DNA of 64,000 nt from positions 16,430,001-16,494,000 of the forward strand of contig JANJGN010000034.1 of assembly GCA_026770705.1 (NCBI GenBank), read 5' to 3'. The position numbers were made by a program, and so were the translations under genes. Under the pieces are notes generated by a model. It was not told the DNA's origin. It did not search any database and was given only the letters and a program-made list of their open reading frames with translations. This stretch comes from Isurus oxyrinchus. Lineage: Eukaryota. Of this stretch, positions 9,516 to 41,370 are shown in pieces. The first letter of the stretch is position 1. Each line of letters opens with the position of its first letter.

Positions 9516-9520
9516 AAAGT

Positions 9521-14040: not shown

Positions 14041-14654
14041 AAAATTTTCCAAATTCCCTTTTTGACAGTGACAAGGTCCCCAAACATTCCACGTAGTTGA
14101 TAAGCATCACACAGCTGCTTCTTCACACTGTTTCAAGGCTTCTCACTCCCCTGACCACCAGGATAATCACATGAAAAAAGATGTTTCAAGATTCCCTCAA
14201 TGAGGTCCATTGTATTAGTAGCATGATGATATTAGATACTACTACCATTGGCATACTTCCAGCTCTCTGATGAGTGCACGTTCTTGGTCATTATACTGAG
14301 TGTATCTTTCCTACAGGAATTATTTGCATGTATGATGTCAAACTGCTTCAGATACCAATTGGCCACAACTATTTATTCATTACCGCAACCCTAATGATTC
14401 CCACAAGGAGGAAGTCAGCAAATTCAATACAGTCCAATTTGACTTCACCCCATCATCACTTATGTACATCATCACACCGTGATAAACATAAGTAATCAGA
14501 CAAAAGTTAATCAGTTACATTGTTATTTCAGGCTCCTCAGTCCATTTAGTGGTGGCAAATAAGATCACCCTCAGCACTGAGTCAGGAAGTAGTGGGTGTA
14601 AGACTCCATCGCAAAAACTGGAGACCCATAATCCAGACCTGACCGTCGTGTCTC

Positions 14655-17600
14655 CAGTACTGAGGGAGTGACGCACAGTCGGAGGGTCAGTCCTGAGGGA
14701 GTGCTGCACGGTCAGAGGGTCAGTACTGAGGGAGTGCTGCATTGTCGGAGGGTCAGTACTAAGGGAGTGCTGCACTGTCGGAGGGTCAGCACTGAGGGAG
14801 TGCTGCACTGTCGGAGGGCCAGTACTGAGGGAGTGCTGCACTGTTGGAGGGTCAGTACTGAGGGAGTGATGCACTGTCGGAGGGTCAGTATTGAGGGAGC
14901 ACTGCACTGTTGAAGCGTCAGTACTGAGGGAGTGCTGCACTGTCAGAGGGTCAGTACTGAGGGAGCACTGCACTGTCGGAGGGTCAGTACTGAGGGAGTG
15001 CTGCACTGTCAGAGGGTCAGTACTGAGGGAGTGCTGCACTGTCGGAGGGTCAGTACTGAGGGAGTGCTGCACTGTCGGAGGGTCAGTACTGAGGGCGTGA
15101 TGCACTGTCGGAGGGTCAGTATTGAGGGAGCACTGCACTGTCGGAGGCTCAGTACTGAGGGAGTGCTGCACTGTCAGAGGTTCAGTACTGAGGGAGTGTT
15201 GTACTGTCAGAGGGTCAGTACTGAGGGAGCGCTGCACTGTCGGAGGGTCAGTACTGAGGGAGTGCTGTACTGTCGGAGGGTCAGTACTGAGGGAGGGCTG
15301 CACTGTTGAAAGGTCAGTACTGAGGGAGCCCTGCACTGTTAGAGGGTCAGTACTGAGGGAGTGCTGTACTGTCGGAGGGTCAGTACTGAGGGAGGGCTGC
15401 ACTGTTGGAACGTCAGAACTGAGGATGTGCTGCACTGTCAGAGGGTCAGTACTGAGGGAGCGCTGCACTGTCAGAGGGTCAGTACTGAGGGAGTGCTGCA
15501 CTGTCGGTGGTTCAGTACTGAGGGAGTGCTGCACTGTTAGAGGGTCAGTACTGAGGGAGCGCTGCACTGTCAGAGGGTCAGTACTGAGGGAGGGCTGCGA
15601 TGTCAGAGGGTCAGTACTGACGGAGTGCTGCACTGTCGGAGGGTCAGTACTGAGGGAGTGCTGTACTGTCGGAGGGTCAGTACTGAGGGAGGGCTGCACT
15701 GTTGAAAGGTCAGTACTGAGGGAGCCCTGCACTGTCAGAGGGTCAGTACTGAGGGAGTGCTGTACTGTCGGAGGGTCAGTACTGAGGGAGGGCTGCACTG
15801 TTGGAACGTCAGAACTGAGGATGTGCTGCACAGTCAGAGGGTCAGTACTGAGGGAGCGCTGCACTGTCAGAGGGTCAGTACTGAGGGAGTGCTGCACTGT
15901 CAGAGGGTCAGTACTGACGGAGTGCTGCACTGTCAGAGGGTCAGTACTGAGGGAGTGCTGCACTGTCGGAGGGTCAGTACTGAGGGAATGTTGCACTGTC
16001 AGAGAGTCAGTGCTGAGGGAGTGCTGCCCTGTCAGAGAGTCAGTACTGAGGGAGTGCAGCACTGTCAGAGGGTTATTACTGAGGGAGCACTGCACTGTCG
16101 GAGTGTTATTACTGAGGGAGCGCTGCACTGTCGGAGGGTTATTACTGAGGGAGCGCTGCACTGTCAGAGGGTTATTACTGAGGGAGTGCTGCATTGTCGG
16201 AGGGTTATTACTGAGGGAGCGCTGCACTGTCGGAGGGTTATTACTGAGGGAGCGCTGCACTGTTGGAGGGTTATTACTGAGGGAGTGCTGCACTGTCGGA
16301 GGGTCAGTATTGAGGGAGCACTGCACTGTTGGAGGGTCAGTACTGAGGGAGCGCTGCACGGTCGTAGGGTCAGTACTGAGGGAGTGCTGCACTGTCGTAG
16401 GGTCAGTACTGAGAGAGTGCTGCACTGTCAGAGGGTCAGTACTGAGGGAGTGTTGTACTGTCAGAGGGTCAGTACTGAGGGAGTGCTGCACTGTTGAAAG
16501 GTCAGTACTGAGGGAGCGCTGCACTGTCAGAGGGTCAGTACTGAGGGAGTGCTGTACTGTCGGAGGGTCAGTACTGAGGGAGGGCTGCACTGTTGGAACG
16601 TCAGAACTGAGGATGTGCTGCACTGTCAGAGGGTCAGTACTGAGGGAGCGCTGCACTGTCAGAGGGTCAGTACTGAGGGAGTGCTGCGCTGTCGGTGGTT
16701 CAGTACTGAGGGAGTGCTGCACTGTTAGAGGTTCAGTACTGAGGGAGTGCTGCACTGTCAGAGGGTCAGTACTGAGGGAGTGCTGCGATGTCAGAGGGTC
16801 AGTACTGAGGGAGTGCTGCACTTTCGGAGGGTCAGTATTGAGGGAGCGCTGCACTGTCAGAGGGTCAGTACTGAGGGAGTGCTGCACTGTCGTAGGGTCA
16901 GTACTGAGGGATTGCTGCACTGTCGTAGGGTCAGTATTGAGGGAGTGCTGCACTGTTGAAGCGTCAGTACTGAGGGAGTGCTGCACTGTCAGAGGGTCAG
17001 TTCTGAGGGAGCGCTGCACTGTCAGAGGGTCAGTACTGAGGGAGTGCTGCACTGTCGTAGCGGCAGTACAGAGGGAGTGCTGCACTGTCGTAGGGTCAGT
17101 CCTGAGGGAGTGCTGCACTGTTGAAGGGTCAGTACTGAGGGAGTGCTGCCCTGTCAGAGGGTCAGTACTGAGGGAGTGCTGCACTGTCGGAGGGTCAGTA
17201 CTGAGGGAGTGCTGCACTGTCGGAGAGTCAGTATTGAGGGAGTGTTGTACTGTCAGAGGCTCAGTACTGAGGGAGTGCTGTACTGTCGGAAGGTCAGTAC
17301 TGAGGGAGGGCTGCACTGTTGGAACGTCAGAACTGAGGATGTGCTGCACTGTCAGAGGGTCAGTACTGAGGGAGCGCTGCACTGTCAGAGGGTCAGTACT
17401 GAGGGAGTGTTGTACTGTCAGAGGGTCAGTACTGAGGGAGGGCTGCACTGTTGAAAGTTCAGTACTGAGGGAGCGCTGCACTGTCAGAGGGTCAGTACTG
17501 AGGGTGTGCTGTACTGTCGGAGTGTCAGTACTGAGGGAGGGCTGCACTGTTGGAACGTCAGAACTGAGGATGTGCTGCACTGTCAGAGGGTCAGTACTGA

Positions 17601-18858
17601 GGGAGCGCTGCACTGTCAGAGGGTCAGTACTGAGGGAGTGCTGCACTGTCGGTGGTTCAGTACTGAGGGAGTGCTGCATGTCAGAGGGTCAGTACTGAGG
17701 GAGTGCTGCACTGTCAGAAGGTCAGTACTGAGGGAGTGCTGCGATGTCAGAGGGTCAGTACTGACGGAATGCTGCACTGTCGGAGGGGCAGTATTGAGGG
17801 AGCACTGCACTGTCGGAGGGTCAGTACTGAGGGATTGCTGCACTGTCGTAGGGTCAGTATTGAGGGAGTGCTGCACTGTTGAAGCGTCAGTACTGAGAGA
17901 GTGCTGCACTGTCAGAGGGTCAGTACTGAGGGAGCACTGCACTGTCAGAGTGTCAGTACTGAGGGAGTGCTGCACTGTCGTAGGGTCAGTACTGAGGGAG
18001 TGCTGCACTGTCGTAGGGTCAGTACTGAGGGAGTGCTGCACTGTTGAAGGGTCAGTACTGAGGGACTGCTGCACTGTCAGAGGGTCAGTACTGAGGGATT
18101 GCTGCACTGTCGAAGGGTCAGTACTGAGGGAGTGCTGTACTGTCAGAGGGTCAGTACTGAGGGAGGGCTGCACTGTTGAAAGGTCAGTACTGAGGGAGGG
18201 CTGCACTGTCAGAGGGTCAGTACTGAGGGAGTGCTCTACTGTCGGAGGGTCAGTACTGAGTGAGGGCTGCACTGTTGGAACGTCAGAACTGAGGATGTGC
18301 TGCACAGTCAGAGGGTCAGTATTGAGGGAGCGCTGCACTGTCAGAGGGTCAGTACTGAGGGAGTGCTGCACTGTCGGTGGTTCAGTACTGAGGGAGTGCT
18401 GCACTGTCAGAGGGTCAGTACTGAGGGAGTGCTGCACTGTTGGTGGTTCAGTACTGAGGGAGTGCTGCACTGTCAGAGGCTCAGTACTGAGGGAGTGCTG
18501 CACTGTCGTAGGGTCAGTACTGAGGGAGTGCTGCACTGTCGGAGGGTCAGTATTGAGGGAGCGCTGCACTGTCGGAGGGTCTATACTGAGGGAGTGCTGC
18601 ACTGTCGTAGGGTCAGTACTGAGGGAGTGCTGCACTGTCAGACGGTCAGTACTGAGGGAGCGCTGCACTGTTAGAGGGTCAGTACTGAGGGAGTGCTACA
18701 CTGTTGTAGGGTCAGTACTGAGGGAGTGCTGCACTGTCGTAGGGTCAGTACTGAGGGAGTGCTGCACTGTTGAATCTTCAGTACTGAGGGATTGCTGCAC
18801 TGTCAGAGGATCAGTACTGAGGGAGTGCTGCACTGTCAGAGGGTCAGTACTGAGGGAG
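14655..18858 (+). repeat. 33-bp minisatellite (GTCAGTACTGAGGGAGTGCTGCACTGTCGGAGG), ~127 copies, preceded by a degenerate SINE head (14575-14655)
   Basis: 11-residue periodicity in the ORF track; recurrent variant units; the upstream flank resembles the flanks of the arrays at 30655 and 33220. Confidence 0.95.
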
Positions 18859-19544
18859 ATCTGCACACACAGAAAGCTGCTTTCTGGCATATCTGGCCTT
18901 CTCTTTGAATTTAAATTCTCATTGTATCACCAGGTCTTTTGAACTCCCAGCTCTTCGAACAATAAAACCTCTTTCCAGGCACCAATCTTATGAGTAATTT
19001 AAACATTGCTTGGTCTCTGCTAACTGTGTGCTAGATTTCACTCCCACTCTTGAATGATCTATTCAACAAAATGGAAATGTACCACGGTCCCTGTTTACAT
19101 CTCGAAACGACTACTCACCAGATCTCCCAGGTGCGCTGACCTTAATCCCACACATTAGACCTCCGTTTAAAACAAAGTAGTTCCAATAACATTACATAGC
19201 TTAAAATCTCCATCCATGATGAGTACATCAACACCAAGATCATTGCTTTGAGAGTGACTAAGTGTTCAGAATGCTGAGTCACAAGGATGGGGGAGAAACT
19301 GCTGCGACATGTCCCAAGCAGGCTTAACAGCAGCAATGAGCGGGTTGTGGTAAATGCTTAGGGGCAATTGGCAACTGGCAATAAAGGGTGACATTGCCAG
19401 TGGTGCTCACATCGCCAGACTGAATAACTAATATAATTAAAACTTCATTGCAATGGGGAGACTCCATCGGACCTGTTATCATCAACAACTGCATCCTCAA
19501 TCATTGTGACAAAATCTTGTGATTTAAATATGAAATCTAATCCA

Positions 19545-21299: not shown

Positions 21300-21531
21300 A
21301 GGGGTGAAAGCGTTAACTTCAGTGAACTGGACTGTGGGGAGCGCATGAACCACGCCTCCGATTTTCTGATTAGCTGTAACATCCGCATTTTGGCTCTAGT
21401 CTGGAATGTGGTGTTGAAACTTGGATATTATTTTCTGATTCTCAGAGTTTCTGTTAGGGCTGGGAGTGCTCTTCTGTCTGCGTGTGCATTGCTCTCACTC
21501 TCTCTGCAATGTGGTATTCCCAGTTCTCAGG
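21300..21531 (+). promoter_or_regulatory. Candidate promoter/non-coding first exon of the B7-family gene
   Basis: Unique island ending in a consensus donor AGG|GTAAGT (21531/21532), followed by IRF-like AGTTTCTCTCACTTTC and further AGTTTC motifs. The ATG exon at 24180 has an acceptor and therefore needs an upstream exon. The start coordinate is approximate. Confidence 0.4.
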
Positions 21532-21812
21532 GTAAGTTTCTCTCACTTTCCAGTCCAGGGTTTCCTGCATAAAAACAGCTTCACTGCTCAGGAGTTTCAG
21601 CTGTTGAGCCAGTTTCACANNNNNNNNNNNNNNNNNNNNNNNNNNNNNNNNNNNNNNNNNNNNNNNNNNNNNNNNNNNNNNNNNNNNNNNNNNNNNNNNN
21701 NNNNNNNNNNNNNNNNNNNNNNNNNNNNNNNNNNNNNNNNNNNNNNNNNNNNNNNNNNNNNNNNNNNNNNNNNNNNNNNNNNNNNNNNNNNNNNNNNNNN
21801 NNNNNNNNNNNN

Positions 21813-23500: not shown

Positions 23501-24180
23501 GTCCTAGAGTTCAGCTCCACCTCAATTTACCTGATAGGCAGACTTGATATCTTGAGTTGACAAAAGCCGCAATTATAAGTAAACATTCTTTTCTCTCTCT
23601 CTCTCTCTCTTTCTCTCTTTCTCCCTCTCTCTCTCTCTCTTTCTCACTACTGGTTCCTGTTTTGATCCACTACCCACACACTTGTGCAGCAGTGGCTTTG
23701 GTTCAGGAACGGGGATGCGAGTGGGCTATCCCCCTCTCCCCCCTCCCCCGTGAACGCAGAGCAGGGAGGGGGAGAGGGGAACGGGTGTGTGCCGAGGGTG
23801 GGTGGGGTTGGGGTTGGGGTTGGGGCCGGGGCAAGTATAGGTGTTAGATTTCAGCCAGCAAAGCTGCCAGAGAGCAGGGGCTGCGATGCCCTTCGAGGTC
23901 GAAAAGTTGACTGGCTTCTTCAAAATGCAAAAATCCCAAGTTTGGGAAAAAAAAACGGGAGCACTCACAGGTTTGAAGGCGCAGTATCCTAGATTAAGAG
24001 GGTGGGGAGATTGAGGATTTGGGATTTGGGATTTGCTTGGTGGGGGGGCGGGGGGGGGGGCGGGGTGGGGGGGTGGGGGGATGTTCTGGTAGGTGCAGAG
24101 TGGAAGAGTGTCACATAAAATTGAACCATGCACTGTTTGAAACGCACACTTTAATTGGAACATTTCTCTTCTCTTTCAGG

Positions 24181-24232
24181 ATGAAGGCGCTATTTCTTGG
24201 GCTGTGTGTGTTAGTCCTCAGGGCTGAGGAAG
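24181..24232 (+). CDS. B7-family Ig-superfamily protein, coding exon 1 (signal peptide MKALFLGLCVLVLRAEE)
   Basis: Polypyrimidine acceptor TTTCTCTTCTCTTTCAG|G ATG; donor GAAG|GTGGGT, phase 1; n/h/c signal-peptide pattern; splices in frame to the IgV exon. Confidence 0.8.
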
Positions 24233-24289
24233 GTGGGTACTTGATTGACCTTATCCTATTTGTAATGGCTGACAGAAAAAAACTCAACC

Positions 24290-25440
24290 AGATCAGAGCG
24301 AGGATGTTACACGGAGAGACCGGGGCAGAGAAGGTTAAGGGGGTGATTGAATCGAGGCGTTCAGAATCATGAGGGGTTTGGATGGACTCAGCAAGGAGAA
24401 ACTGTTTCCAGTAACAGGAACGCCAAAGTACACAGGTCCCTGAAGGCAGCAGTTCAAGTGTACAAGGTTGTGACCAAGGCTTATGGAATGCTCTCCTTCA
24501 ATAGCAGGGGTATTGAATATAAAAGTAGGGATGTAATGTTGGAATTGTATAAAACACTGATGGGGCCAAAACTGGAGTATTGTGTGCAGTTCTGGCCACC
24601 GCATTACAGGAAGGATGTAGTAGCTCAGGAGAGAGTGCAGAGGAGGTTTACAGGAATGTTGCCAGGGTTAGAAAAGTGTAGCTATGAGGAGAGATTGGAT
24701 AGGTTGGGGTTATTTTCCTTAGAACAAAGAAGGCTGAGAGGTGACTTGATCGAGATGTACAAAATTACGAGGGGAATAGTTAGAGTGGACAGGATAAAAT
24801 TGTTTCCCTTGGAGGAGAATTCAAGAACCAGGAGACATAGATTCAAGGTAAGTGGCAGAAGGTGTAGGGGGGACATGAGGAAGAACTTTATTACACAGAG
24901 GGTAGTGGGTGTCTGGAATTCGCTGCCCAAGTTGGTGGTAGAGGCAGAAACTCTAAACTCTTTTAAAAAGTACCTGGATCTGCACCTTGAGTGCTGTAAG
25001 CTGCTGCAGGCATTGGGCCGGGTGCAGAAAGGTGGGATTAGAAAGGACCCCTGGGTGTCCTCAGGCTGGATCATGGACAAGATGGGCCGAATGGCCTCCT
25101 TCTGTGCTGTAACTTTTCTATGTTTCTATGGTTCTATGGAGGGTCGGTAACCAGAGGGACACAGATTGAAGGGAATCAGGAAAAGACCAGAGGGGGGAGA
25201 TGAGGACAATTTTTTTTTTGACACAGCGAGTTGTTGTGATCTGGAAGGCGCTGCTGAAAGGGCGGTGGAAGCAGATCAATAGGAACTTTCAAAAGGGGGG
25301 AATCGGAGGAATAATTGAAGGGGAGAAATTTGCAGGACTGTGAGGGAAAGAGCAGAGGGGTGAGAGTTGGACTAATTGGATAGGTCTTTCAAAGAGCCGA
25401 CACAGGCATGATGGGCTGAATGGCCTCCTCCTGTGCTGTC
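24290..25440 (+). mobile_element. Nested CR1 fragments: younger CR1 3' end (about 24421-25139) inserted in an older CR1 3' fragment
   Basis: ORF 24347-25150 is a CR1 ORF2 C-terminus (LYKTLMGPKLEYCVQFWPPH..LERVQRRFT-like..WNSLP) with a (TTCTATGG)n tail at about 25116-25139; the older copy resumes at GGAGGGTCGGTAACCAGAGG. Confidence 0.88.
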
Positions 25441-25590
25441 TGGTTCTAGGAAGTCCAAATCTTGACTGTTTTTCAATTGCATTCAATGGGTTGTTTCAGC
25501 TGGCGGGGGGGTGGGGTGTCAATAGAAAGAAATATCCAGAGGGGAGTATAACTGCCAGTTCTCCACCCTCCTTCCAAAATTTGTAACATT

Positions 25591-25970
25591 TTGAGGACAG
25601 TCAGAGATTAATTACTGTGAGACTCAGCTTGAGGATAGTCAGAGGCTAATTGCTGTGGCAGATGTATCCCTCAAGAGGACACTTAGAGAGCCTAGTAGCT
25701 GTGACCAACTCTTTTGAGAACAGTAAAGAGACCAATTTTTGTAAGCGGCACACCTTGAAGAAAGTTAGGCACTAATTGCAATGAGATACGGCCTGAGGAA
25801 AGTCAGGGCTAAGTTATGGAACTGACACACCCTGAGAACAATAAGAGGTTAATTACGCTGACCAGCATATTTGAGGACAGTTGGAGGCTAATTGCTGTGA
25901 GGCACATCATGAGGACAGTCAGAGGCTAATTGCTACGGCAGGCAAATCTTCAAGGACAGTTAGAGGTTAG
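25591..25970. repeat. Old, degenerate ~39-40-bp tandem repeat (~10 copies; core TGAGGACAGTCAGAGGCTAATTGCTGTG)
   Basis: The core recurs near 25592, 25630, 25674, 25715, 25756, 25794, 25833, 25872, 25910 and 25950. Confidence 0.7.
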
Positions 25971-26394
25971 TTCCTTTCTTTGGATCAGCAAAAGCAAATC
26001 ATCCACCAATGTGAAACTCCTCACATCCCCTCACCAGTGCCTGCGTCTGAACCAGGCTCTGAGGTTTGGTCAGAAATTCATCCATCAGAGTATCGTGGGT
26101 GAGGCCAGGCTGCGATTGTCGTAAACTGCAACAATACAGTAGTCTTCCAGAGTTATTCAATTAACTGAACTTAAGTTCCATGGTGAGATTTGAAACTCAT
26201 ACCTCTGGGTAATTAGTCAAGGTGACAGGATTACTGATCAGGTAACATAACCGCTCAGCTACCATACACTGATTCCAAAACCAAGAACAGTCCCGAGGAA
26301 ATATAATTGATGTGCTGCAGCTGCCTGTTCTACATACCGTCCGGGTCTCTGTTTGTGCTGGAGTCAGCTCCTGGAATGATGCCTGGGTTGGCAA

Positions 26395-27630
26395 GCTGTA
26401 ACTGGTGGAGCGCTGCAGGGATCAGTTCTGGGGACCTCAACTATTTACAATCTATATCAGTGACTTGGATGGCTGCATTGTAGCCAAATTTGCTACTGAC
26501 ACAAAGCTAGGCAAGGAAAGCAAGCTGTGAGGATGATGCAAAGAGTTTGCAAAGGGGACATAGTCAGGTAAAGTGAGCGGGCAAAAGTTTGGCAGGTGGG
26601 GTATAATATGGGAAATGTGAACTTGTCCAGTTTGGCAGCAAGAATGGAAAAGCGGAATGTTATTTGAAACGGAGAGAGACTGCAGAATGTTACAGTAAAG
26701 AGGGATCTGGGTGTCCTTGTCCATGAATCACAAAAAGGTCAGCATGCAGGCACAGCAAGTAATTAGGAAGGCAAATGAATGTTGGTCTTTATTGCAAGGG
26801 GGATGGAGTATAAAAGTAGGGAAGTCTTGCTACAGCTGTACAGGGCATTGGTGAGACCATACCTGGTGTACCGTGTACAGTTTTGGTCTCCTTACTTAAG
26901 GAGGGATAGACTTGCATTGGAATCAGTCCAGAGAAGGTTCACTCGGCTGATTCCTTGGGTGAAGGGGGTTTGTCTTAGGAGGAAAGGTTGAGCAGGTTGG
27001 GTCTGTATCCACTGGAGCTTAGAAGAATGAGAGGCGATCTTATTGAAACAGATCAGATTCTGAGGGGGGGGCGGGGGGGGGGGGCGGGGGGGTTCTTGAC
27101 GGGGTGGATGCCTGAAAGGATGTTTGCCCCTCGTGGGGGACTCTAGAACTCGGGGGCACAGTTTCAGGATAAGGGGGTCTCCCAATTAAGGATGGAGATG
27201 AGGAGGCATTTCTTCTCTCAGAGGGCTGTTAGTCTGTGGAATCCTCTTCCCCAGAGAGCCGTGGGGGGGGTGGGGGGGGGGGGGGGGGGGGGGGGGGTGC
27301 GGGTGGGGGGGTGGGGGGGGTTGGGGGGGTGGGGGGGTCGGGGGGGGGGGGGTGGTGGGGGGTGGGGTGGGGGGGGGGCGGGTTGGGGGGGGGTGGTGGC
27401 GGTCGGGACATTGGACTGTTGTGTCTAGTTCTGGGCTCCGCACTTCAGGGACAAAGTGGAGGTATTAGAGCGGGTGCAGAGTCACGAGAATGGTTGCAGG
27501 GGTAGAGGAACTTCATTTGGGTGGGTAGAGGGGAGAATGTGAGACTGTTCTCCTCGGAGAAGAGGAAGCTGAGAGGATAGAGGTGCTCAAAATGATGAGG
27601 GGTCTGGACAGAGAGGATAGCAAAAAAATC
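26395..27630 (+). mobile_element. Degenerate CR1 ORF2 3' half with long G-tract expansions
   Basis: LQLYRALVRPYLVYRVQFWSPYL..VQRRFTRLIP; G-rich tracts at 27063-27092 and 27261-27400. Confidence 0.85.
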
Positions 27631-27639
27631 CCATTGGTT

Positions 27640-27976
27640 TTTTTTTAAAATTCATTCATGGGAGGTGGGCATCGCTGGCTAGGCCAGCATTTGTTGCCCA
27701 TCCCGAACTGCCCTTGTTCAGAGGGCATTTAAGAGTCAACCACACATTGCTGTGGGTCTGGAGTCACATGTAGGCCCAACCAGGTAAGGGCAGCAGATTT
27801 CCCTCCCTAAAGGGACAGGAGTGACCCGGATGGGACTTTACGACAATCGACGATAATTCCATGGTCATCGTTAGACTTTTAATTCCAGATTTTTATTGAA
27901 CTCGAATTCCACCATCTGCCCTGGCGGGATTTGAACCCAGGTCCCCGGTAGCGTTATTTTGGGTCTCTGGACTACC
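27640..27976 (-). mobile_element. HE1-like tRNA-derived SINE
   Basis: Pol III B box GGTTCAAATCC (minus strand, about 27927-27937), central body shared with 62700-62993 and 63480-63800, and a HER1-like 3' tail. Confidence 0.8.
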
Positions 27977-28336
27977 TTGGTCATTGGCTTCCCTACAGGG
28001 GAAGGATCGAGGAACAGAGGGACTCAGGTTTAAGGCGATTGGCAAAAGGAGCGACAGAGACATGAGGAGAACTTTTTATCCCACGCAGTGAGTGGTTGGG
28101 ACCGGGAATGCACTGCCTGAGAGCGTGTGGGGGGTGGGGGGTTGCAGATTCAATTGAGGATTTGAAAAGGGAATTGGATCGTTGTCCGAAACATCTGCAG
28201 GGTTAAGGGAAAAGGCAGGCGGGGGTGGGGTGGGGGGGCGGGGGGGAACGGCCTCCTTCTGCGCTGTAACCATTCTTCCCATTCTCTGACTTCTCTTTTT
28301 GCTCGAGGCGTTGACCGATTTCCCTTCCTTTCGCAG

Positions 28337-28657
28337 GCCCAAAATTCAGCGTCACCGCACACTACAGCGGGGAAGTCATCCTTCCATGCAGCACAGGAGG
28401 CAGCTCTGTCGGGAGGGTTTATTGGCAAAAGGAGGGCAATAAACCGGTCTTCATGAAAGCCTATTGCACAGACGGAAGTAACTGCGACAAGATCAAGTCC
28501 AGCTATGCTGGCCGAGCACTCTTCATTGGCAATTTAACACGGGGCAACTTCTCTCTCAAACTTCAAGACATTCGCCTTGATGACGAAGGCTCCTACCACT
28601 GTGTGCTAATGAATAATCAAGAAGTCTCTCACTGTCACCATAACCTGAAAGTGATAG
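28337..28657 (+). CDS. B7-family protein, coding exon 2 (IgV domain)
   Basis: Acceptor TTTCCCTTCCTTTCGCAG|, donor G|GTAAGA, phase 1-1. GPKFSVTAHYSGEVILPC..RVYWQKE..YAGRA..GNFSLKLQDIRLDDEGSYHC..LKVI has the V-set Cys/Trp/DxGxYxC; RVYWQKE resembles CD80 RIYWQKE. Confidence 0.92.
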
Positions 28658-28714
28658 GTAAGAGAAATTTAAATTAATCCTCTGCTTCATTTTGACTGGA
28701 ACTGAAAGGGTTAA

Positions 28715-29460
28715 ATTGCAACAAGAGAGAATCTAACCATCACCCCTTGACATTCAATAGCATTACCATCACTGAATCCCCCACCATCAACATCCTGGGG
28801 GTCACCATTGACCAGAAACTGAACTGGAATAGCCATATAAATACTGTGGCTACAAGAGCAGGTCAGAGGCTGGGAATCCTGCGATGAGTAACTCACCTCC
28901 TGACTCCCCAAAGCCTGTCCACCATCTACAAGGCACAAGTCAGGAGTGTGATGGAATACTCCCCACTTACCTGGATGAGTGCAGCTCCACAACACTCAAG
29001 AAGCTCGACACCATCCAGGACAAAGCAGCCCCCGCTTGATTGGCACCACATCCACAAACATTCACTCCCTCCACCACTGACGCACAGTAGCAGCAGTGTG
29101 TGTACCATCTACAAGATGCACTGCAGCAACTCACCAAGGCTCCTTAGACAGCACCTTCCAAACCCACGACCGCTACCACCTAGAAGGACAAGGGCAGCAG
29201 ACACATGGGAACACCACCACCTGGAAGTTCCCCTCCAAGCCACTCACCATCCTGACTTGGAAATATATTGGCCGTTCCTTCATTGTCGTTGGGTCAAAAT
29301 CCTGGAGCTCCCTCCCTAACAGCGCTGTGGGTGTACCTACACCACAGGGACTGCAGCGGTTCAAGAAGGCAGCTCACCACCACCTTCTCCAGGGGCAATT
29401 AGGGATGAGCAATAAACGCTGGTCCCAGCCAGCGAAACCCACATTGCATAAATTAGTTTT
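28715..29460 (+). mobile_element. 5'-truncated HER1-like LINE in the IgV-IgC intron
   Basis: MEYSPLTWMSAAP..; shared 3' tail. Confidence 0.88.
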
Positions 29461-30180
29461 TAAAAATTACATTGCATAGAGTAGGATTGTATTCCTCCGA
29501 GTCTAGAAGATTAAGGCGTGACCTAATCGAGGGGTTTAAGATGAGGTTTCAATAGGGTCTATAGAGAGAAACTATTTCTTCTGGTGTGGTTTATGGGGGG
29601 GTGCAGGGGGAGTCCCTTAAAATTGGAGACGGGCCATTCAGGGGGTGATGTCAGGAAGCACTTCCTCATACAAAGGGGAAGAGGAAATCTGGAACTCTCT
29701 CCCCACACGCACCCCCGCAAAAGGCCATTGACTGAAAATGTCCAAACTGCGATTTTCTTTATTTTTTTTGCTGGGTAAGGGTATTAAGGAACCGAGCTGG
29801 GTAGAGGGAATTTTAAGAGGCAGACGAGCTGTGGCTTACCGAGGGCTGTATGGCCTCCTCCTCTTCCTATACCCCTCTGTCCACTGCTCAAAGGATTGAG
29901 GGTGCGGCTGCCGAGTGAGGGGGATGCAAGTTGCGACGCCCCCTGCAGTCAAATAGCCCAGCACCAATCAACGGCAAGATGCAGGGTTCAGAAAAGCTGC
30001 CAGGGCTCGGTGGTGGGGGGTGGGGAGGGTGGTGGGGTGGGGAGGGGGGCTCTAGGTTGGGGGTGGTGGGATTTGGGTTCCAAAGCTAGGAGCAGAGGTG
30101 GGGAAAAGAAAATGAGAGAGTTTTTTTTTAGCATCAGGTCTTGTCTGTGTTAATGACTCCGATTTTTATCCAACTCTCAG

Positions 30181-30459
30181 CCCAGTACCGGACACCAGAG
30201 ATAAACATCACACGGGGAGTGGACAATGTTGTCACTCTCACCTGTTCCACCAGTGGAGGTTACCCAGAGGCTGCGGTGCGATGGGTGAATGGAAGTGATA
30301 ACAGTTCCTTCCCGGAGAATCTGGTGGTGACCAGACACGTCAGGGACGAGCATCGACTGTACAGTCTGACCAGTGTCCTTCGGGTCAAAGTCAGTAATGA
30401 CCGCATCACCTGTCAAATCATCAGCAACAGAACTGAAGACATCAATAACTCGGTCTCAG
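30181..30459 (+). CDS. B7-family protein, coding exon 3 (CD80-like IgC domain)
   Basis: Acceptor ..CTCTCAG|, donor CAG|GTGAGG, phase 1-1. AQYRTPEI..VTLTCSTSGGYPEAAVRW..DEHRLYSLTSVLRV..ITCQI carries the B7/butyrophilin C-domain signature CxSxGGYPxP/A. Confidence 0.92.
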
Positions 30460-30599
30460 GTGAGGCTGCGAGAGCCAAACTCCTGTAGTAACTGTAGAGA
30501 TTCATTGCCATGTTGCTGTGTTCCGGAGGGAAGAGGGTAGATTGTCCGAAGGACCATAGTGAGCAGCAATTCCATAATCTTCAAATTCCAAAGGTTATG

Positions 30600-31866
30600 G
30601 GAAGGGCTCCCCAGCAGAGAGACCTGAACCCAGAATCCAGGCACGCAGGTCCAATACAGTACTGAGGGAGTGCTGCACTGTCAGAGGGTCAGTATTTAAG
30701 GATTGCCGTACTGTCGGATGGTCAGTACTGAGGGAGTGCTGCACTGTCGGAGGGTCAGTACCGAGGGAGTGCTGCACTGTCGGAGGGTCTGTACTGAGGG
30801 AGTGCTGCACTGTCAGAGGGTCTGTACTGAGGGGAGTGCTACACTGTCAGAGGGTCAGTACTGAGGGAGTGCTGCACTGTCGGAGGGTCAGTACTGAGGG
30901 AGTGCTGCACTGTCGGAGAGCCAGTATTTAAGGATTGCCGTACTGTCGGATGGTCAGTACTGAAGGAGTGCTGCACTGTCTGAGGGTCAGTATTTAAGGA
31001 TTGCCGTACTGTCGGATGGTCAGTACTGAGGGAGAGCTGCACTGTCGGAGGGTCAGTACTGAGAGAGTGCTGCACTGTCGGAGGGTCATTGCTAAGGGAG
31101 TGCTGCACTGCCAGAGGGTCAGTGCTGAGGGAGTGTGCACTGTCGGAGGATCAGTACAGAGGGAGTGCTGCACTGTCAGAGGGTCAGTACTGAGGGTGTG
31201 CTGCACTGCCAGAGGGTCAGTACTGAGGGAGTGCAGCACTGTCGGAGGATCAGTACTGAGGGAGTGCTGCACTGCCAGAGGGTCAGTACTGAGGGAGTAC
31301 TGCACGGTCGGAGGGTCAGGACTGAGGGAGTGCTGTACTGTCAGAGGGTCAGTGCTGAGGGAGTGCTGCACTGTCAGAGGGTCAGTACTGAGGGAGCGCT
31401 GCACTGCCGGAGGGTCAATACTGAGGGAGCACTGCACTGTCAGAGGGTCAGTACTGAGGGAGCGCTGCACTGTTAGAGGGTCAGTGCTGAGGGAATGCTG
31501 CACTGTTGGAGGGTCAGTGCTGAGGGAGCTCTGCACTGTCAGAGGGTCAGTACTGAGGGAGTGCTGCACTGTTGGAGGGTTAGTACTGAGGGAGTGCTGC
31601 ACTGCCAGAGGGTCAGTACTGAGGGAGCTCTGCACTGTTGGAGGGACAATATTTAGCATGAGATGTTAAACCAAGGCCCCTGTCTGCCCTCTCAGGTGGG
31701 TGTAAAAGATCCCATGGCCACTATTTTGAAGATGAGCGCTGTGTCCTGGGGCCAATATTTGTCTCTCAACTAAAACACTTAAAACAGATGATCTGGGTCA
31801 TTGTCACACTGCTGTTTGTGGGAGCTTGCTGTGCGCAAATTGGCTGCTGTGTTTCCCACGTTACAA
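30600..31866 (+). mobile_element. Deu-domain-type SINE with an internal 33-bp minisatellite expansion (about 30655-31645, ~30 copies)
   Basis: The array is followed by ATGAGATGTTAAACCAAGGCCCCTGTCTGCCCTCTCAGGTGGGTGTAAAAGATCCCATGGC..GCTGTTTGTGGGAGCTTGCTGTGCGCAAATTGGCTGC, which I recognise from memory as the DeuSINE/SacSINE1-type central domain; also present at 38690-39880 on the minus strand. Confidence 0.75.
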
Positions 31867-31869
31867 ACC

Positions 31870-32770
31870 TTATGCAGCTCCAGCAACAGTCAACAAGCTC
31901 AATACATCCAGGACAAAGCAACCCGCTTAATTAAAAACCCATCTTCCACCTTCAATATTCACTCCCTACACCACTGACGCACAGTAGCAGCAGTGTGTGT
32001 ACCATCTGCAAGATGCACTGCAGGAATTCACCAAGGCTCCTTAGACAGCACCTTCCAAACTCACGACCTCTACCATCTAGAAGGACAAGGGCAGCAGACA
32101 CATGGGGAACATCACCACCTGGAAGTTCCCCTCCAAGTTACTCACCATCCTGACTTGGAAATATATCGGCCGTTCCTTCAGTCGCTGGGTCAAAATCCTG
32201 GAACTCCCTCCCTAACAGCACTGTGGGTGGGCCTTACAGCAGTAGAAGAGGATATTCAGCCCATTGTGCGGGCTGTTTGAAAGATCTATCCAATTATCCC
32301 CACACTCTCCCCCCCACCTTGCTCTTTCCCCCATAGTCCTGCAAATCTTTCCCCTTCAATTATTAATCCAATTCCCCCTTTTGAAAGTTCCTATTGAATC
32401 TGCTTCCACCGCCCTTTCAGGCAGCGCCTTCCAGATCACAACAACTCGCTATGTCAAAAAAAATTCTCCTCATCTCCCCCTCTGGTTCTTTTCCCGATTC
32501 TCTTCAATCTGAGTCCCTCTGGTTACCGACCCTCCTGCCACTGGAAACAGTTTCTCCTTATTGACTCTATCCAAACCCCCTTCATGATTCTGAACGCCTC
32601 GATTCAATCTCCCCCTTAACCTTCTCTGCTCTAAAGGAGAACAATCCCCAGCTTCTCCCAGTCCCTCCACATGAACTGGAGTCCCCGGGACCATTCGAGT
32701 AGATCGCCGTCTCACCAAGCCTTCCTAAAGTCCATGGTGACCGGAAGTGGACACAGTCCTCCAGCTGGTC
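31870..32770. mobile_element. HER1-like LINE fragment (+, about 31870-32230) followed by a CR1 3' fragment (-, about 32250-32770)
   Basis: Homology to other copies in the window; FSLEQRRLRG-type translation. Confidence 0.8.
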
Positions 32771-33219
32771 GTTGAGAGATTTGGCAAGGTTTAACAGTGA
32801 CATTATTGTTCTTGGACTTCAAAACACTATTAATATTGCCAAAAGTCCCACTGGCTTTTCAAGAATGTTTCACAATATTTGCTTTTATCCCAGTAAAAGA
32901 GAGTTTCCTACTCTCTTAGAATTGCAGACATTCACTCTGTCTATTCTGTTCCACAACCCCTGTTAAAATTGTACCTCAAGTTGATAAAAAAAATCTCTTA
33001 ACTCTCAAAACACTTCACACTTCCTTCCCTTAAATGTCACGTGCATGTGTTAACCACACCAGTTAACAGATTCAGAAGAAGTTCCTGCCTGTAATGCTTG
33101 AAGTGATGGCCACATGTTCACCCTGGGGCTGTGTGGGAAGCAGCCTACTTATTCAGCAGAACACTGTGGCTTAGTCCCACCCAAGTGTTCAGTGCAAACT
33201 TCAACACTGATCTGCCCTC

Positions 33220-33873
33220 TGCAGTGCTGAGGGAGTACTGCACTTTTGGAGGGTCACTGCTGAGGGAGTGCTGCACTGTCAGAGGGTCAGTACTGAGGGA
33301 GTGCTGCACTGTCAGAGGGTCAGTACTGAGGGAGTGTGGCACTGTCGGAGGGTCAGTACTGAGGGAGCACTGCACTGTCAGAGGGTCAGTACTGAGGGAG
33401 TGCTGCACTGTCAGAGGGTCAGAACTGAGGGAGCGCTGCACTGTCAGAGGGTCAGAACTGAGGGAGTGCTGCACTGTCGGAGGGTCAGTACTGAAGGAGT
33501 GCTGCACTGTCGGAGGATCAGTACTGAGGGAGAGCTGCACTGTCGGAGGGTCAGTACTGAGGGAGCACTGCACTGTCGGAGGGTCAGTACTGAGGGAGCG
33601 CTGCACTGTCGGAGGATCAGTACTGAGGGAGAGCTGCACTGTCGGAGGGTCAGTACTGAGGGAGCACTGCACTGTCGGAGGGTCAGTACTGAGGGAGTGC
33701 TGCACAGTCGGAGGGTCAGTACTGAGGGAGCACTGCACTGTCGGAGGGTCAGTACTGAGGGAGTGCTGCACTGTCGGAGGGTCAGTACTGAGGGAGCACT
33801 GCACTGTCGGAGGGTCAGTACTGAGGGAGTGCTGCACTGTCGGAGGGTCAGTACTGAGGGAGTGCTGCACTGT
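33220..33873 (+). repeat. 33-bp minisatellite, ~20 copies, preceded by a degenerate SINE head
   Basis: Same unit as 14655-18858. Confidence 0.95.
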
Positions 33874-34214
33874 TAGTGTCTGGAATGCGCTGCCTGAGAG
33901 TGTGGTGGAGGCAGATTCATTCGAGTCATTCAGGAGGGCATTGTATTATGACCTGTTAAGTAAGAATGTGCTAGGCTACAAGATGAAAGTGGGGGAGTGG
34001 CACTAGATAAATTCCTCTCATGAAGAGCCAGCATAGAGAAGTTGCACTGAATGGCCTTTGTGCTGTAACGATTCTGGTGACACTATGATGGCGATACTCT
34101 GGAAGGCACAGCTGCTGCAAGGGAGTGTAAGGTGTGGTGAAAGGATTCAGCTGCAGTAACAAGAGATTCTATCGGATAATGGTTGACTTTCTCTCTTCCT
34201 CATGTTTTGTTCAG

Positions 34215-34324
34215 TGTACCCCAACGGTCGTGGACCCAGCTCGATCAAGGTTGCCTCTGGAGCAAGCAAGCTGTCCTTCCTCTGGAGCATTCTCATAACC
34301 GGTGCCTCGCTCTCTTTGAAGTAA
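34215..34324 (+). CDS. B7-family protein, last coding exon (linker + hydrophobic C-terminus, putative GPI signal)
   Basis: Acceptor CTTTCTCTCTTCCTCATGTTTTGTTCAG|; phase 1 gives VYPNGRGPSSIKVASGASKLSFLWSILITGASLSLK-stop (TAA 34322-34324). Total CDS is 52+321+279+110 = 762 nt. Confidence 0.7.
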
Positions 34325-36009
34325 ACCCTTCTCGATTCTTCTGTCTGCTCTGAATGTCCCTCTGCTGCGGGCAGTGGGTGGACACAGACTGGCGCGTGCC
34401 ACATCTCCGCTCTCCTTCCCCTTGCCTCTTGGCCAGACGTGGTCACGCCCGGACATCATGGTTGAGGAGCCTGTCTGACTGTCTTGCCTCTGTTAGCTTA
34501 GCCGCACATAGCGTTGGGGGGGCTGGGGAGGGGGAGGGTGGTGGTGCAGGAGGTGTTTGGNNNNNNNNNNNNNNNNNNNNNNNNNNNNNNNNNNNNNNNN
34601 NNNNNNNNNNNNNNNNNNNNNNNNNNNNNNNNNNNNNNNNNNNNNNNNNNNNNNNNNNNNNNNNNNNNNNNNNNNNNNNNNNNNNNNNNNNNNNNNNNNN
34701 NNNNNNNNNNNNNNNNNNNNNNNNNNNNNNNNNNNNNNNNNNNNNNNNNNNNNNNNNNNNNNNNNNNNNNNNNNNNNNNNNNNNNNNNNNNNNNNNNNNN
34801 NNNNNNNNNNNNNNNNNNNNNNNNNNNNNNNNNNNNNNNTTGGTGNNNNNNNNNNNNNNNNNNNNNNNNNNNNNNNNNNNNNNNNNNNNNNNNNNNNNNN
34901 NNNNNNNNNNNNNNNNNNNNNNNNNNNNNNNNNNNNNNNNNNNNNNNNNNNNNNNNNNNNNNNNNNNNNNNNNNNNNNNNNNNNNNNNNNNNNNNNNNNN
35001 NNNNNNNNNNNNNNNNNNNNNNNNNNNNNNNNNNNNNNNNNNNNNNNNNNNNNNNNNNNNNNNNNNNNNNNNNNNNNNNNNNNNNNNNNNNNNNNNNNNN
35101 NNNNNNNNNNNNNNNNNNNNNNNNNNNNNNNNNNNNNNNNNNNNNNNNNNNNNNNNNNNNNNNNNNNNNNNNNNNNNNNNNNNNNNNNNNNNNNNNNNNN
35201 NNNNNNNNNNNNNNNNNNNNNNNNNNNNNNNNNNNNNNNNNNNNNNNNNNNNNNNNNNNNNNNNNNNNNNNNNNNNNNNNNNNNNNNNNNNNNNNNNNNN
35301 NNNNNNNNNNNNNNNNNNNNNNNNNNNNNNNNNNNNNNNNNNNAGAGGAGCTGTGTAATCGATGAAATTGTTCAGGTGCTAAATGGAGGGGGGGGGGGGC
35401 CTGCCGAAACATCTGGTTGGGACTGACCGGCTGCGATTGTCGTACACCGAGAAGACTTTGGTTCCGGGATGGGGGGGTTGTGAGTCAGAGGAAAGAGGAC
35501 AAACAGAGCCGGTCCGGGTATGCTGCCCGTTTTTCCACCTCGCGGAACAGCAATGGACAATTACCCAGCTCCGGCCTGGCCCACCCACCACCCCCACCCC
35601 ACCCAGCCACGCCCCCCCCCGCCACGCCAGCCCTGACCCAAGCCGCCCGCCCGAGCCAAGCAATGGAACCATACTCGACCTCAGGATGTGCCTGCTGCAA
35701 CCGCTGCCCCCTGCTGTGAAGCCTCCTGCAGTCGAGGCAGGAGAGTGGGAATGGACAGGACGTTTGTTACGATGGAATCCGGGCAGGCGTGTGAATTTTA
35801 AGGGTCTCCAGCTGCCCAAGTCTGGATTACTGGATGTGTCTGAACTCTGGGGTTAATTTGCGATTCATATTAAAAGGACAGTTTTGAAATCTTGGTTGAT
35901 TGTTTGAAATCCTGCTTCAGTCCACTTTTGTACCTTTGTTCCCAACCCGCTCGACTATTCCAACACTCTACTGCCCAGCCTCCCATCCCCCCGCCCTCCG
36001 TAAACTTCA

Positions 36010-38689: not shown

Positions 38690-41370
38690 ACTTCAGGACA
38701 ACACAAAGCCTTTCACAACCAATGGGCCTTTTGAAGAGGGCTCACTGTCATTTTACAGAGAAACGTGGCAGTCACTTTGCACACAGCAAGTTCCCACAAA
38801 CAGCAATGTGAGAACCACCCAGACAGAGAGTAACGCTCCCTCTACACTGTCTCCATCAAACACTCCCAGGACAGGTACAGCACAGGGTTAGATACAGAGT
38901 AAATCTCCCTCTACACTGTCTCCATCAAACACTCACAGGACAGGTACAGCATGGGGTTAGATACAGAGTAAAGCTCCCTCTACACTGTCTCCATCAAACA
39001 CTCACAGGACAGGTACAGCACGGGGTTAGATACAGAGTAACGCTCCCTCTACACTGTCTCCATCAAACAGTCCCAGGGACAGGTACAGCACAGGGTTAGA
39101 TACAGAGTAAAGCTCCCTCTACACTGTCCCCATCAAACACTCCCAGGACAGGTACAGCACGGGGTTAGATACAGAGTAAAGCTCCCACTACACTGTCCCC
39201 ATCAAACACTCCCAGGACAGGTACAGCACGGGGTTAGATACAGAGTAAAGCTCCCTCTACACTGTCTCCATCAAACACTCCCAGGACAGGTACAGCACGG
39301 GGTTAGATACAGAGGAAAGCTCCCTCTACACTGTCTCCATCAAACACTCACAGGACAGGTACAGCACGGGGTTAGATACAGAGTAACGCTCCCTCTACAC
39401 TGTCTCCATCAAACAGTCCCAGGGACAGGTACAGCACAGGGTTAGATACAGAGTAAAGCTCCCTCTACACTGTCCCCATCAAACACTCCCAGGACAGGTA
39501 CAGCACGGGGTTAGATACAGAGTAAAGCTCCCACTACACTGTCCCCATCAAACACTCCCAGGACAGGTACAGCACGGGGTTAGATACAGAGTAAAGCTCC
39601 CTCTACACTGTCTCCATCAAACACTCCCAGGACAGGTACAGCACGGGGTTAGATACAGAGGAAAGCTCCCTCTCCACCAAACACTCTCAGGACAGGTACA
39701 GCGCACTTTTTACGATGTTGGTTGAGGGATAAATATTGGCCCCAGGAAACCGGGGAGAACTCCCCCCTGCTCTTCTTCCAAATATTGGCTGTGAGATCTT
39801 TTACACACACCTGGCAGGGCAGACTGGGGCCTCGGTTTAATGTCTTATCTGAAGCATGGCACCTCCAACACTACAGCATTCCGTCAGTACTGACCCTTCA
39901 ACAGTGCGGCGCTCCCTCAGTACTGACCCTCCAACAGTGCAGCACTCCCTCAGTACTGACCCTCCAACCGTGCAGCACTCCCTCAGTACTGACACTCCAA
40001 CAGTGCAGCACTCCCTCAGTACTGACCCTCCAACAGTGCAGCACTCCCTCAGTACTGACCCTCTGACAGTGCAGCACTCCCTCAGTACTGACCCTCCAAC
40101 AATGCAGCACTCCCTCAGTACTGACCCTCCAACCGTGCAGCACTCCCTCAGTACTGACACTCCAACAGTGCAGCACTCCCTCAGTACTGACCCTCCAACA
40201 GTGCAGCACTCCCTCAGTACTGACCCTCTGACAGTGCAGCGCTCCCTCAGTACTGACCCTCCAACAGTGCAGCGCTCCCTCAGTACTGACCCTCTGACAG
40301 TGCAGCGCTCCCTCAGTACTGACACTCTGACAGTGCGGCACTCCCTCAGTACTGACCCTCCGACAGTGCAGCACTCTCTCAGTACTGACCCTCTGACAGT
40401 GCAGCACTCCCTCAGTATTGACCCTCTGACAGTGCAGCACTCCCTCAGTACAGACCCTCTGACAGTGCAGTACTCCCTCAGTACTGACCCTCCGACAGTG
40501 CAGCACTCCCTCTGTACTGACCCTCTGACAGTGCAGCACTCCCTCAGTACTGACCCTCCAACAGTGCAGTGCTCCCTCATTACTGACCCTCTGACAGTGC
40601 AGCACTCCCTCAGTACTGACCCTCCAACAGTGCAGCACTCCCTCAGTACTGACCCTCTGACAGTGCAGCGCTCCCTCAGTACTGACCCTCCAACAGTGCA
40701 GCGCTCCCTCAGTACTGACCCTCTGACAGTGCAGCGCTCCCTCAGTACTGACACTCTGACAGTGCGGCACTCCCTCAGTACTGACCCTCCGACAGTGCAG
40801 CACTCTCTCAGTACTGACCCTCTGACAGTGCAGCACTCCCTCAGTATTGACCCTCTGACAGTGCAGCACTCCCTCAGTACAGACCCTCTGACAGTGCAGT
40901 ACTCCCTCAGTACTGACCCTCCGACAGTGCAGCTCTCCCTCAGTACTGACCCTCTGACAGTGCAGCACTCCCTCAGTACTGACCCTCTGACAGTGCAGCA
41001 CTCCTTCAGTACTGACTCTCTGACAGTGCAGCACTCCCCAGTACTGACCCTCCGATAGTACAGCCCTCCCTCAGTACTGACCCTCCGACAGTGCAGCACT
41101 CCCTCTGTACTGATCCTCTGACAGTTCAGCACTCCCTCAGTACTGACCCTCCAACAGTGCAGTGCTCCCTCATTACTGACCCTCTGACAGTGCAGCACTC
41201 CCTCAGTACAGACCCTCTGACAGTGCAGCACTCCCTCTGTACTGACCCTCTGACAGTGCAGCGCTCCCTCAGCACTGACCCTCCGACAGTGCAGTGCTCC
41301 CTCAGTACTGACCATCCGACAGTGCAGCACTCCCTCAGTACTGACCCTCTGACAGTGCAGCGCTCCATCT
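38690..41370 (-). mobile_element. Deu-domain-type SINE interrupted by a 69-bp array (about 38820-39703, ~13 copies) and carrying a 33-bp array (about 39860-41370, ~45 copies)
   Basis: SINE tail 38690-38822 and body 39705-39880 are reverse-complement homologues of 31650-31866; the arrays are evident from their periodicity. Confidence 0.85.

What the first reader, a model, noticed from the sequence alone, without database searches (positions are those of the whole stretch)
24181..34324. B7-family costimulatory-ligand gene that appears GPI-anchored rather than transmembrane
Seen: SP-IgV-IgC splice in frame to an exon ending ..KVASGASKLSFLWSILITGASLSLK-stop, with small residues (S-G-A) 22 aa from the end, then a 16-residue Ser-rich hydrophobic stretch and no cytoplasmic tail. 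Established: mammalian CD80, CD86, ICOSL, PD-L1 and B7-H3 are type I membrane proteins with tails; this C-terminal pattern fits a GPI signal. The sequence mixes CD80-like (RVYWQKE; CSTSGGYPE) and ICOSL-like (Y.GRAL..RG.FSL.L) features. Inference: a divergent or ancestral-type B7 ligand in a cartilaginous fish, raft-associated or sheddable.
Basis: partly seen in the sequence, partly recalled or inferred. Interest (0 to 1): 0.7.

Follow-up and report, generated by a model that had tools for sequence, protein, structure and literature searches.

The report
Tailless shark B7 immune ligand
Sharks and rays carry a spliced gene for a B7-type immune co-signalling protein that ends without any part inside the cell and is likely tied to the cell surface by a lipid (GPI) anchor, sitting between two ordinary membrane-spanning B7 genes; this is an uncommon but precedented design.

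Summary
Four phase-1 exons give a 253-aa signal peptide-IgV-IgC protein ending in Ser-Gly-Ala, a short spacer and 16 weakly hydrophobic residues, with no tail. RNA-like contigs splice IgV to IgC and continue past it; the last junction was not seen directly. White-shark RefSeq models have the same last exon, and orthologues from ten other shark and ray sources are all tailless: 10 of 11 clade rows pass a rough GPI rule, 0 of 15 comparison B7 proteins do. GPI anchoring is likely (about 0.8) but untested. The gene is the middle one of three B7 genes; both neighbours are type I membrane proteins. ICOS ligand is the closest solved relative, but orthology is unresolved, and the neighbourhood (XRCC1, IRG GTPase) is not that of mammalian ICOSL or CD80/86. 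It is not CD276, despite database names. 'Ancestral-type' is not supported: tail loss looks derived. B7-H4 is a reported GPI precedent. This scan noted the same kind of gene before in another genome (e1-9811610). Verdict: real, conserved variant of a known family; interest 0.42.

The parts
21465..21531 (+). Upstream exon (5' end not fixed; at least from about 21465). Holds an in-frame ATG at 21509 that would add 8 residues before the ATG at 24181
   Evidence: White-shark isoform X1 matches 21482-21532; donor GTAAGT at 21532 and frame; RNA-like contigs carry 67-131 letters upstream of the next exon (their placement here is inferred)
24180..24232 (+). Signal-peptide exon (ATG 24181), phase-1 donor
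   Evidence: 17 of 18 residues match white-shark P0001; hydropathy KD11 3.1
28337..28657 (+). IgV exon: C35-C106, extra C61/C67 pair, R44-x-Y46-W47-Q48 on the C strand
   Evidence: Pfam V-set E 2.6e-13 on P0001; spliced contigs; conservation
30181..30459 (+). IgC exon (CD80-like C2-set), C146-C202, W-x-N-x-x-D-N motif shared with ICOS ligand
   Evidence: Pfam C2-set_2 E 1.1e-11; spliced contigs; motif table
34215..34324 (+). Last coding exon: stalk, predicted GPI signal, stop codon
   Evidence: its acceptor has the most T among the pyrimidine-richest of 365 AGs in 30500-34560; junction not seen in reads
34256..34264 (+). Candidate omega site S232-G233-A234 (A231 and G233 are alternatives)
   Evidence: rule-of-thumb scan; inferred
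34271..34318 (+). Hydrophobic C-terminal stretch L237-L252, best 19-residue KD mean 1.29
34325..34523 (+). Probable 3' UTR (minimum extent); no AATAAA/ATTAAA before the N stretch

Best explanation
This is a spliced shark-and-ray B7-family gene whose IgV-IgC product lacks a cytoplasmic tail, is likely GPI-anchored, and would act as a surface ligand for a CD28-family receptor on lymphocytes. Shown: exon structure, splicing of IgV to IgC, B7 fold (predicted model), conserved tailless end, position between two type I B7 genes. Inferred: the signal peptide takes it into the ER; GPI transamidase cuts near S232 and swaps the last ~21 residues for a glycolipid; the IgV front face (R44, Y46, Q48) engages the proline loop of a CD28/CTLA4-like receptor. 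Without a tail it could not signal back into its own cell or be regulated through tail motifs, and could be released by phospholipases. It most likely arose by local duplication and replacement of the TM and tail exons before sharks and rays split.
For: Frame and splice sites. Spliced contigs in 4 of 4 runs. Same last exon in white and basking shark models. All 11 clade rows end 0-6 residues after a weak hydrophobic stretch (KD19 1.26-1.88) against 2.09-3.29 and 15-61 trailing residues in 14 of 15 comparison B7s (the 15th, a CD276 isoform, lacks a TM); rough GPI rule 10 of 11 against 0 of 15. One orthologue comes from a 1093-nt Logan contig. In the 10 NCBI/Logan clusters of the clade read, no member longer than 273 aa was listed. 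Y46, W47, Q48 invariant in 10 of 10 rows, R44 in 9 of 10; they align with ICOSL interface residues Y51/Y53/Q55 (PMC7545189, passages) and with CD80's RIYWQ. Best profile and fold match is ICOSL (120.9 bits for one V-C pair; Z 20.6, rmsd 2.0, 199 aligned). The genome has two HPPPY-bearing CD28/CTLA4-like IgV exons.
Against: No trained GPI predictor and no biochemical test. The rule is my own, from recalled omega-site rules, and passes 21 of 196 other proteins and 31 of 480 random peptides; the zebra-shark row fails it. The omega-site residues themselves are poorly conserved in the alignment. Junction 30459>34215 not seen in reads, and the N stretch after exon 4 is unread. The FG-loop residues that ICOSL uses (G121, F122) fall in a 4-residue deletion in the lamnid protein, and that face varies across the clade. 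B7-H4, once reported as GPI-linked, is described in a 2026 review as type I with a very short tail (PMC13212089, passages), so such predictions in this family can be wrong. No tissue expression data.
Confidence: 0.6

Rival explanations
1. GPI-anchored, but not a trans-acting ligand of CD28/CTLA4-like receptors: a decoy, a cis partner of the neighbouring B7s, or a ligand of another receptor.
For: FG loop shortened and variable; extra C61/C67 pair near the binding face; long branch; chondrichthyan CD28-family genes are not clear orthologues of CD28, CTLA4 or ICOS (PMC11599192, passages).
Against: C-strand R-x-Y-W-Q is as conserved as the fold core.
Confidence: 0.17
2. The C-terminal stretch is an uncleaved single-pass anchor with no tail, as B7-H4 is now usually described.
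For: Family precedent (PMC13212089, passages); some orthologues reach KD19 1.8-1.9.
Against: In this gene the stretch is 16 residues with best KD19 1.29 and no basic stop-transfer cluster; true TM segments of the neighbours score 2.46-3.29.
Confidence: 0.12
3. The protein is mostly secreted (weak GPI signal), acting as a soluble B7.
For: Weak hydrophobicity in several rows (1.26-1.29); zebra shark has a 234-aa model ending after IgC; exon-3 read-through here would stop after 10 residues.
Against: A hydrophobic end preceded by small residues is kept in all 11 rows; zero contig depth in 30500-30640.
Confidence: 0.07
4. The main transcript uses an unseen TM-plus-tail exon (in the N stretch, or the hydrophobic frame at 31696), and the tailless exon is minor or a prediction artefact.
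For: Junction not observed directly; N stretch unread; 31696 gives an in-frame hydrophobic peptide.
Against: 31696 lies in an interspersed repeat with many copies in other loci; exon 4 is conserved in white and basking shark; no orthologue model has a tail; contig overhangs of 236-309 letters fit exon 4 plus UTR, and two end inside the G-run at about 34515-34525.
Confidence: 0.04

Closest known systems
ICOS ligand (ICOSLG, B7-H2, CD275)
   Same: Best single V-C profile hit and best fold match; shares Y53/Q55 equivalents and the IgC W-x-N-x-x-D-N motif
   Different: No TM or tail; FG loop shorter; about 27% identity; no supported clade; TRAPPC10 and PFK markers are on other contigs
CD80 / CD86 and teleost CD80/86
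   Same: R-x-Y-W-Q C strand; V-C ectodomain
   Different: Lower scores (79-88 bits; Z 16.3-16.6 for CD80); POGLUT and ADP-ribosylhydrolase markers not on this contig; grass carp CD80/86 has TM and tail (PMC9245511, passages). I recall tailless or GPI-type teleost CD80/86 reports but could not check them (papers not held).
B7-H4 (VTCN1, B7S1, B7x)
   Same: B7 protein with almost no cytoplasmic part; reported GPI-linked (PMC3584294 citing Prasad 2003, passage)
   Different: Anchor disputed (PMC13212089); not among the best sequence or fold hits listed; no labelled B7-H4 was in my trees
CD276 (B7-H3), the name databases give some orthologues
   Same: Second-best V-C match
   Different: The genome's CD276 lies on another contig and groups with mammalian CD276 at 99/98

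Membership tests
B7 family | IgV plus IgC ectodomain with canonical Cys/Trp | tested here: met
   Pfam V-set and CD80-like C2-set; model pLDDT 82, top fold hits ICOSL, B7-H3, PD-L1, BTN
B7 family | One exon per domain, phase-1 introns, signal peptide | tested here: met
   signal peptide by hydropathy only
B7 family | Type I TM segment and cytoplasmic tail (usual, B7-H4 disputed) | tested here: not met
B7 family | Binds a CD28-family receptor | not tested
   No binding test or complex model was obtained; C-strand residues conserved
GPI-anchored proteins | Small omega/omega+2 residues about 17-31 from the end, spacer, terminal hydrophobic stretch, no tail | tested here: met
   Rough recalled rule: 10 of 11 clade rows, 0 of 15 comparison B7s, 21 of 196 other proteins, 31 of 480 random peptides
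GPI-anchored proteins | Release by PI-PLC, dependence on GPI biosynthesis | not testable with these tools
   needs bench work
ICOSL orthologues | Closest sequence and fold match among solved B7s | tested here: met
   but the two neighbouring shark B7 clades score as high or higher than lizard ICOSL against the clade profile
ICOSL orthologues | One clade with tetrapod ICOSL | tested here: inconclusive
   Not recovered; not rejected (p-AU 0.40), nor were four other groupings (0.21-0.31); only one ICOSL lineage available
ICOSL orthologues | Synteny with TRAPPC10/PFKL/AIRE (human order recalled) | tested here: not met
   TRAPPC10 on C18, PFK on C3 and C14, HSR hits only on C2; gene on C34
ICOSL orthologues | ICOS-contact residues | tested here: inconclusive
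   Y53, Q55 kept; Y51 is R; L114 V, L116 M; G121/F122 in a gap (alignment, numbering offset inferred; PMC7545189)
CD80/CD86 orthologues | Synteny with POGLUT1/ADPRH (human order recalled) | tested here: not met
   family hits on C11, C12, C14, C18, C21, none on C34
CD80/CD86 orthologues | One clade with CD80 and CD86 | tested here: inconclusive
   long-branch frog CD86 joined at 88/85, not; p-AU 0.31
CD276 orthologues | Groups with vertebrate CD276 | tested here: not met
   another gene (C28) does, 99/98 and 99/99; a sister position of the tailless clade to CD276 is not rejected (p-AU 0.25)

The most novel reading that the evidence does not exclude
Sharks and rays keep an undescribed B7 locus beside XRCC1 and an IRG GTPase, a region with no B7 gene in humans (recalled). 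It holds the ligands for their own cluster of CD28/CTLA4-like receptors: two type I ligands with different IgV domains on a gene-converted IgC, and between them a GPI-linked, sheddable ligand that delivers or blocks costimulation with no return signal. This would be a separate solution to T-cell costimulation, parallel to CD80/CD86/ICOSL.
Probability: 0.25. Interest if true: 0.68.

Novelty: new variant of a known kind. Interest (0 to 1): 0.42.

Why it matters
The ligands of shark CD28-family receptors are not established (PMC11599192 and PMC6795676, passages). A conserved three-gene B7 cluster with one tailless member gives named candidates for binding tests. A natural GPI-linked B7 kept across sharks and rays would also show that a B7 ligand can work without a tail, which bears on how much reverse signalling and tail-based regulation matter. 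The proteins are already in RefSeq under conflicting automatic names (CD276-like, ICOSL-like, CD86-like); the clade and its anchor seem unremarked in the papers I could search.

Tried and rejected
Direct read evidence for the exon 3-exon 4 junction was not obtained. No listed run is on record as RNA; the tool marks X1 as probably DNA, though its contig skips the intron at GT..AG. Complex prediction with a shark CD28/CTLA4-like IgV was not available, so there is no verdict on binding. ESM Atlas gave only generic Ig clusters. Trees (42 rows; 32 rows after dropping 11 long or redundant rows and adding one; 19 rows; single-domain trees) did not resolve orthology. HSR search found no hit that I could tie to AIRE. 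Pfam scans of flank ORFs: 150 longest of the far-flank set (5 with hits) and 124 others (5 with hits); nothing cellular was found upstream within 16.24-16.34 Mb. Rejected: the 31696 TM-like frame (repeat); the downstream neighbour's TM exon as an alternative end (about 50 kb away, beyond that gene's own exons); CD276 identity; 'ancestral' status. Literature: 10 searches listed no paper on a GPI-type shark B7; I saw listings only for most hits. Flajnik 2012, Hansen 2009, Zhang 2009, Quiniou 2024 (Immunogenetics), Mo 2017, Collins 2005 and Zang 2003 were not held, so earlier description cannot be excluded. No supplements were read; those of PMC11599192 and PMC13262535 may list these genes. No holocephalan or bony-fish orthologue appeared, but only the best 150 of 2515 hits were shown and the word-based profile search is insensitive.
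Full report
Observation. The exons at 24181-24232, 28337-28657, 30181-30459 and 34215-34324 join in phase 1 at canonical sites into a 253-residue open frame. It reads signal peptide, IgV (C35-C106, extra C61, C67, C117), IgC (C146-C202), a 14-residue stalk, S232-G233-A234, S-K, a 16-residue hydrophobic stretch, Lys, stop; it has seven N-glycosylation sequons. Pfam gives V-set and CD80-like C2-set for the white-shark orthologue. The gene has one exact match in the genome.

Expression and splicing. Fifteen listed runs hold the IgV exon or part of it, none on record as RNA. In all 4 runs laid (3 samples, 2 studies, two organisms) one contig covers exon 2, skips the intron at GT..AG and covers exon 3; it continues 309, 305, 291 and 236 letters further, while depth at 30500-30640 is zero. 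So the transcript splices onward. The target exon was not seen directly. If it is 34215, the overhangs end at 34523, 34519, 34505 and 34450, the first two in a G-rich run; this fits but does not prove it.

Orthologues. The window protein differs from white-shark XP_041032776 at 9 of 253 positions, so the source is a close lamnid relative. Both white-shark models and the basking-shark model end in the same exon. A search of 1.84 billion representatives found full-length relatives in Mustelus, Scyliorhinus, Heterodontus, Stegostoma, three rays and one Logan contig of 1093 nt. They carry conflicting automatic names. All end in small residues and a short hydrophobic stretch; Stegostoma also has a shorter model ending after IgC, for which I used the longer isoform in the counts. 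Best 19-residue hydropathy is 1.26-1.88 with 0-6 residues after it, against 2.09-3.29 and 15-61 residues in 14 of 15 comparison B7 proteins. A rough omega-site rule, written from memory, passes 10 of 11 clade rows and 0 of 15 comparisons, but also 31 of 480 random acceptor peptides and 21 of 196 other proteins. The pattern, not the sequence, is conserved: identity to the white-shark protein among eight non-lamniform rows is 41% in IgV, 40% in IgC, 12% in the stalk and 25% in the signal. That is what is expected of GPI signals (own knowledge).

Surroundings. The gene is the middle of three B7 genes on contig C34: one about 50-60 kb upstream on the minus strand and one about 40 kb downstream on the plus strand. 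Both have TM exons with basic stop-transfer residues and tails. Relatives of the three come from contigs of equal length in white shark, basking shark and horn shark, and two of three in Scyliorhinus torazame and Stegostoma, so the cluster is probably conserved. The flanking genes share only 25-27% in IgV but 86-90% in IgC within a species, against about 60% between orthologues, and 97.4% over 266 bases confined to the exon: concerted evolution that the tailless gene escapes. Further downstream lie an IIGP-family GTPase, a rhodopsin-family receptor and XRCC1; C2-set exons that look nectin-like lie 3 Mb away. From memory this is the human 19q13.3 neighbourhood, which has no B7 gene. Markers recalled as neighbours of ICOSLG (TRAPPC10, PFKL) and CD80 (POGLUT1, ADPRH) map to other contigs.

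Which B7. The clade profile scores ICOSL highest among solved single V-C pairs: 120.9 bits against 104 for B7-H3, 88 for CD86, 79 for CD80, 77 for PD-L1 (four-domain B7-H3 sums higher). The AlphaFold model of the white-shark protein (pLDDT 82) matches ICOSL best (Foldseek 3e-16; Z 20.6 against 18.7 for the next family). The IgC motif W-x-N-x-x-D-N is shared with human and lizard ICOSL and most shark rows, not with the neighbours, CD276 or CD80. Trees recover the tailless genes as one clade (95/88, 96/99) and place another shark gene with CD276, but deeper branches are open, and none of five groupings is rejected (p-AU 0.21-0.40). Against the clade profile several neighbour proteins outscore lizard ICOSL. 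So it is most like ICOSL, orthology unproven, and not CD276.

Mechanism. Shown: structure of the gene and protein and its conservation. Inferred: ER entry, GPI transfer near S232 (about 0.8), surface display on antigen-presenting cells, and binding of a CD28-family proline loop by the IgV front face. Y46, W47 and Q48 are invariant and R44 is in 9 of 10 rows; the matching ICOSL residues Y51, Y53, Q55 contact ICOS (PMC7545189, passages read). The FG-loop contacts are not kept. The genome has two CD28/CTLA4-like IgV exons with HPPPY on C14, in line with the chondrichthyan cluster described in PMC11599192 (passages). Binding is untested.

Known precedent and novelty. B7-H4 was reported GPI-linked (PMC3584294, passage citing Prasad 2003) and is now often called type I with a very short tail (PMC13212089, passages). 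Grass carp CD80/86 has a tail (PMC9245511, passages). PMC13262535, PMC12151841, PMC6795676, PMC9103719, PMC6127213 and PMC9386972 (passages by term search) did not describe this gene. Ten searches listed nothing on a GPI-type shark B7, but the main B7-evolution papers were not held.

Verdict. A real, conserved, tailless B7 lineage of sharks and rays, probably GPI-anchored and probably derived rather than ancestral. New variant of a known kind; interest 0.42.

Noticed in passing
G000:C34 16,390,639-16,390,904 (L010:639-904) and 16,508,272-16,508,537 (L019:4272-4537): IgC exons of the two flanking, oppositely oriented B7 genes are 97% identical over the exon only, while their IgV domains share about 26%; the same within-species likeness holds in white, basking and horn shark: recurrent gene conversion across about 118 kb.
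   Followed up: partly
G000:C34 16.54-16.65 Mb (L022, L025, L026, L104, L108, L109): Ly6/phospholipase-inhibitor-like exon (no Pfam hit; likeness recalled), single-ORF IIGP GTPase, a receptor that looks D2-dopamine-like (recalled), XRCC1.
   Followed up: partly
G000:C34 15.74-15.90 Mb and 17.52-17.57 Mb (L065-L069): Clusters of about ten related V-set exons with B7/butyrophilin-like features, one with an internal stop; not identified.
   Followed up: no
G000:C18 78.15-78.47 Mb (L007, L103, L121, L124): A B7 gene grouping with HHLA2 (93/91) lies 70-320 kb from two CD28H-like IgV exons with EIPP motifs: possible ligand-receptor linkage.
   Followed up: partly
G000:C30 1.62 Mb (L004, L086, L087): Another shark B7 gene (RVYWQ, IgV-IgC), orthologous to a horn-shark TM protein, beside a WBP2-like gene (likeness recalled); candidate CD80/86-like.
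   Followed up: partly
G000:C15 117.51 Mb (L058:733-2139 +): Intron-free 469-aa open frame with B7-like V-C-V-C domains; possibly a retrocopy.
   Followed up: no
G000:C14 27.81 and 27.85 Mb (L122, L123): Two CD28/CTLA4-like IgV exons with HPPPY.
   Followed up: partly
window 8478-10546 (-): Two near-identical tandem 350-aa frames with a GIY-YIG-like end, likely Penelope-type retroelement pieces (label recalled).
   Followed up: no
window 14515-18900, 30660-31640, 33220-33870, 39850-41370; G000:C34 16.31-16.38 Mb: Arrays of a roughly 33-base tandem repeat give long spurious open frames; about 60 kb upstream of the cluster is almost wholly repetitive.
   Followed up: no
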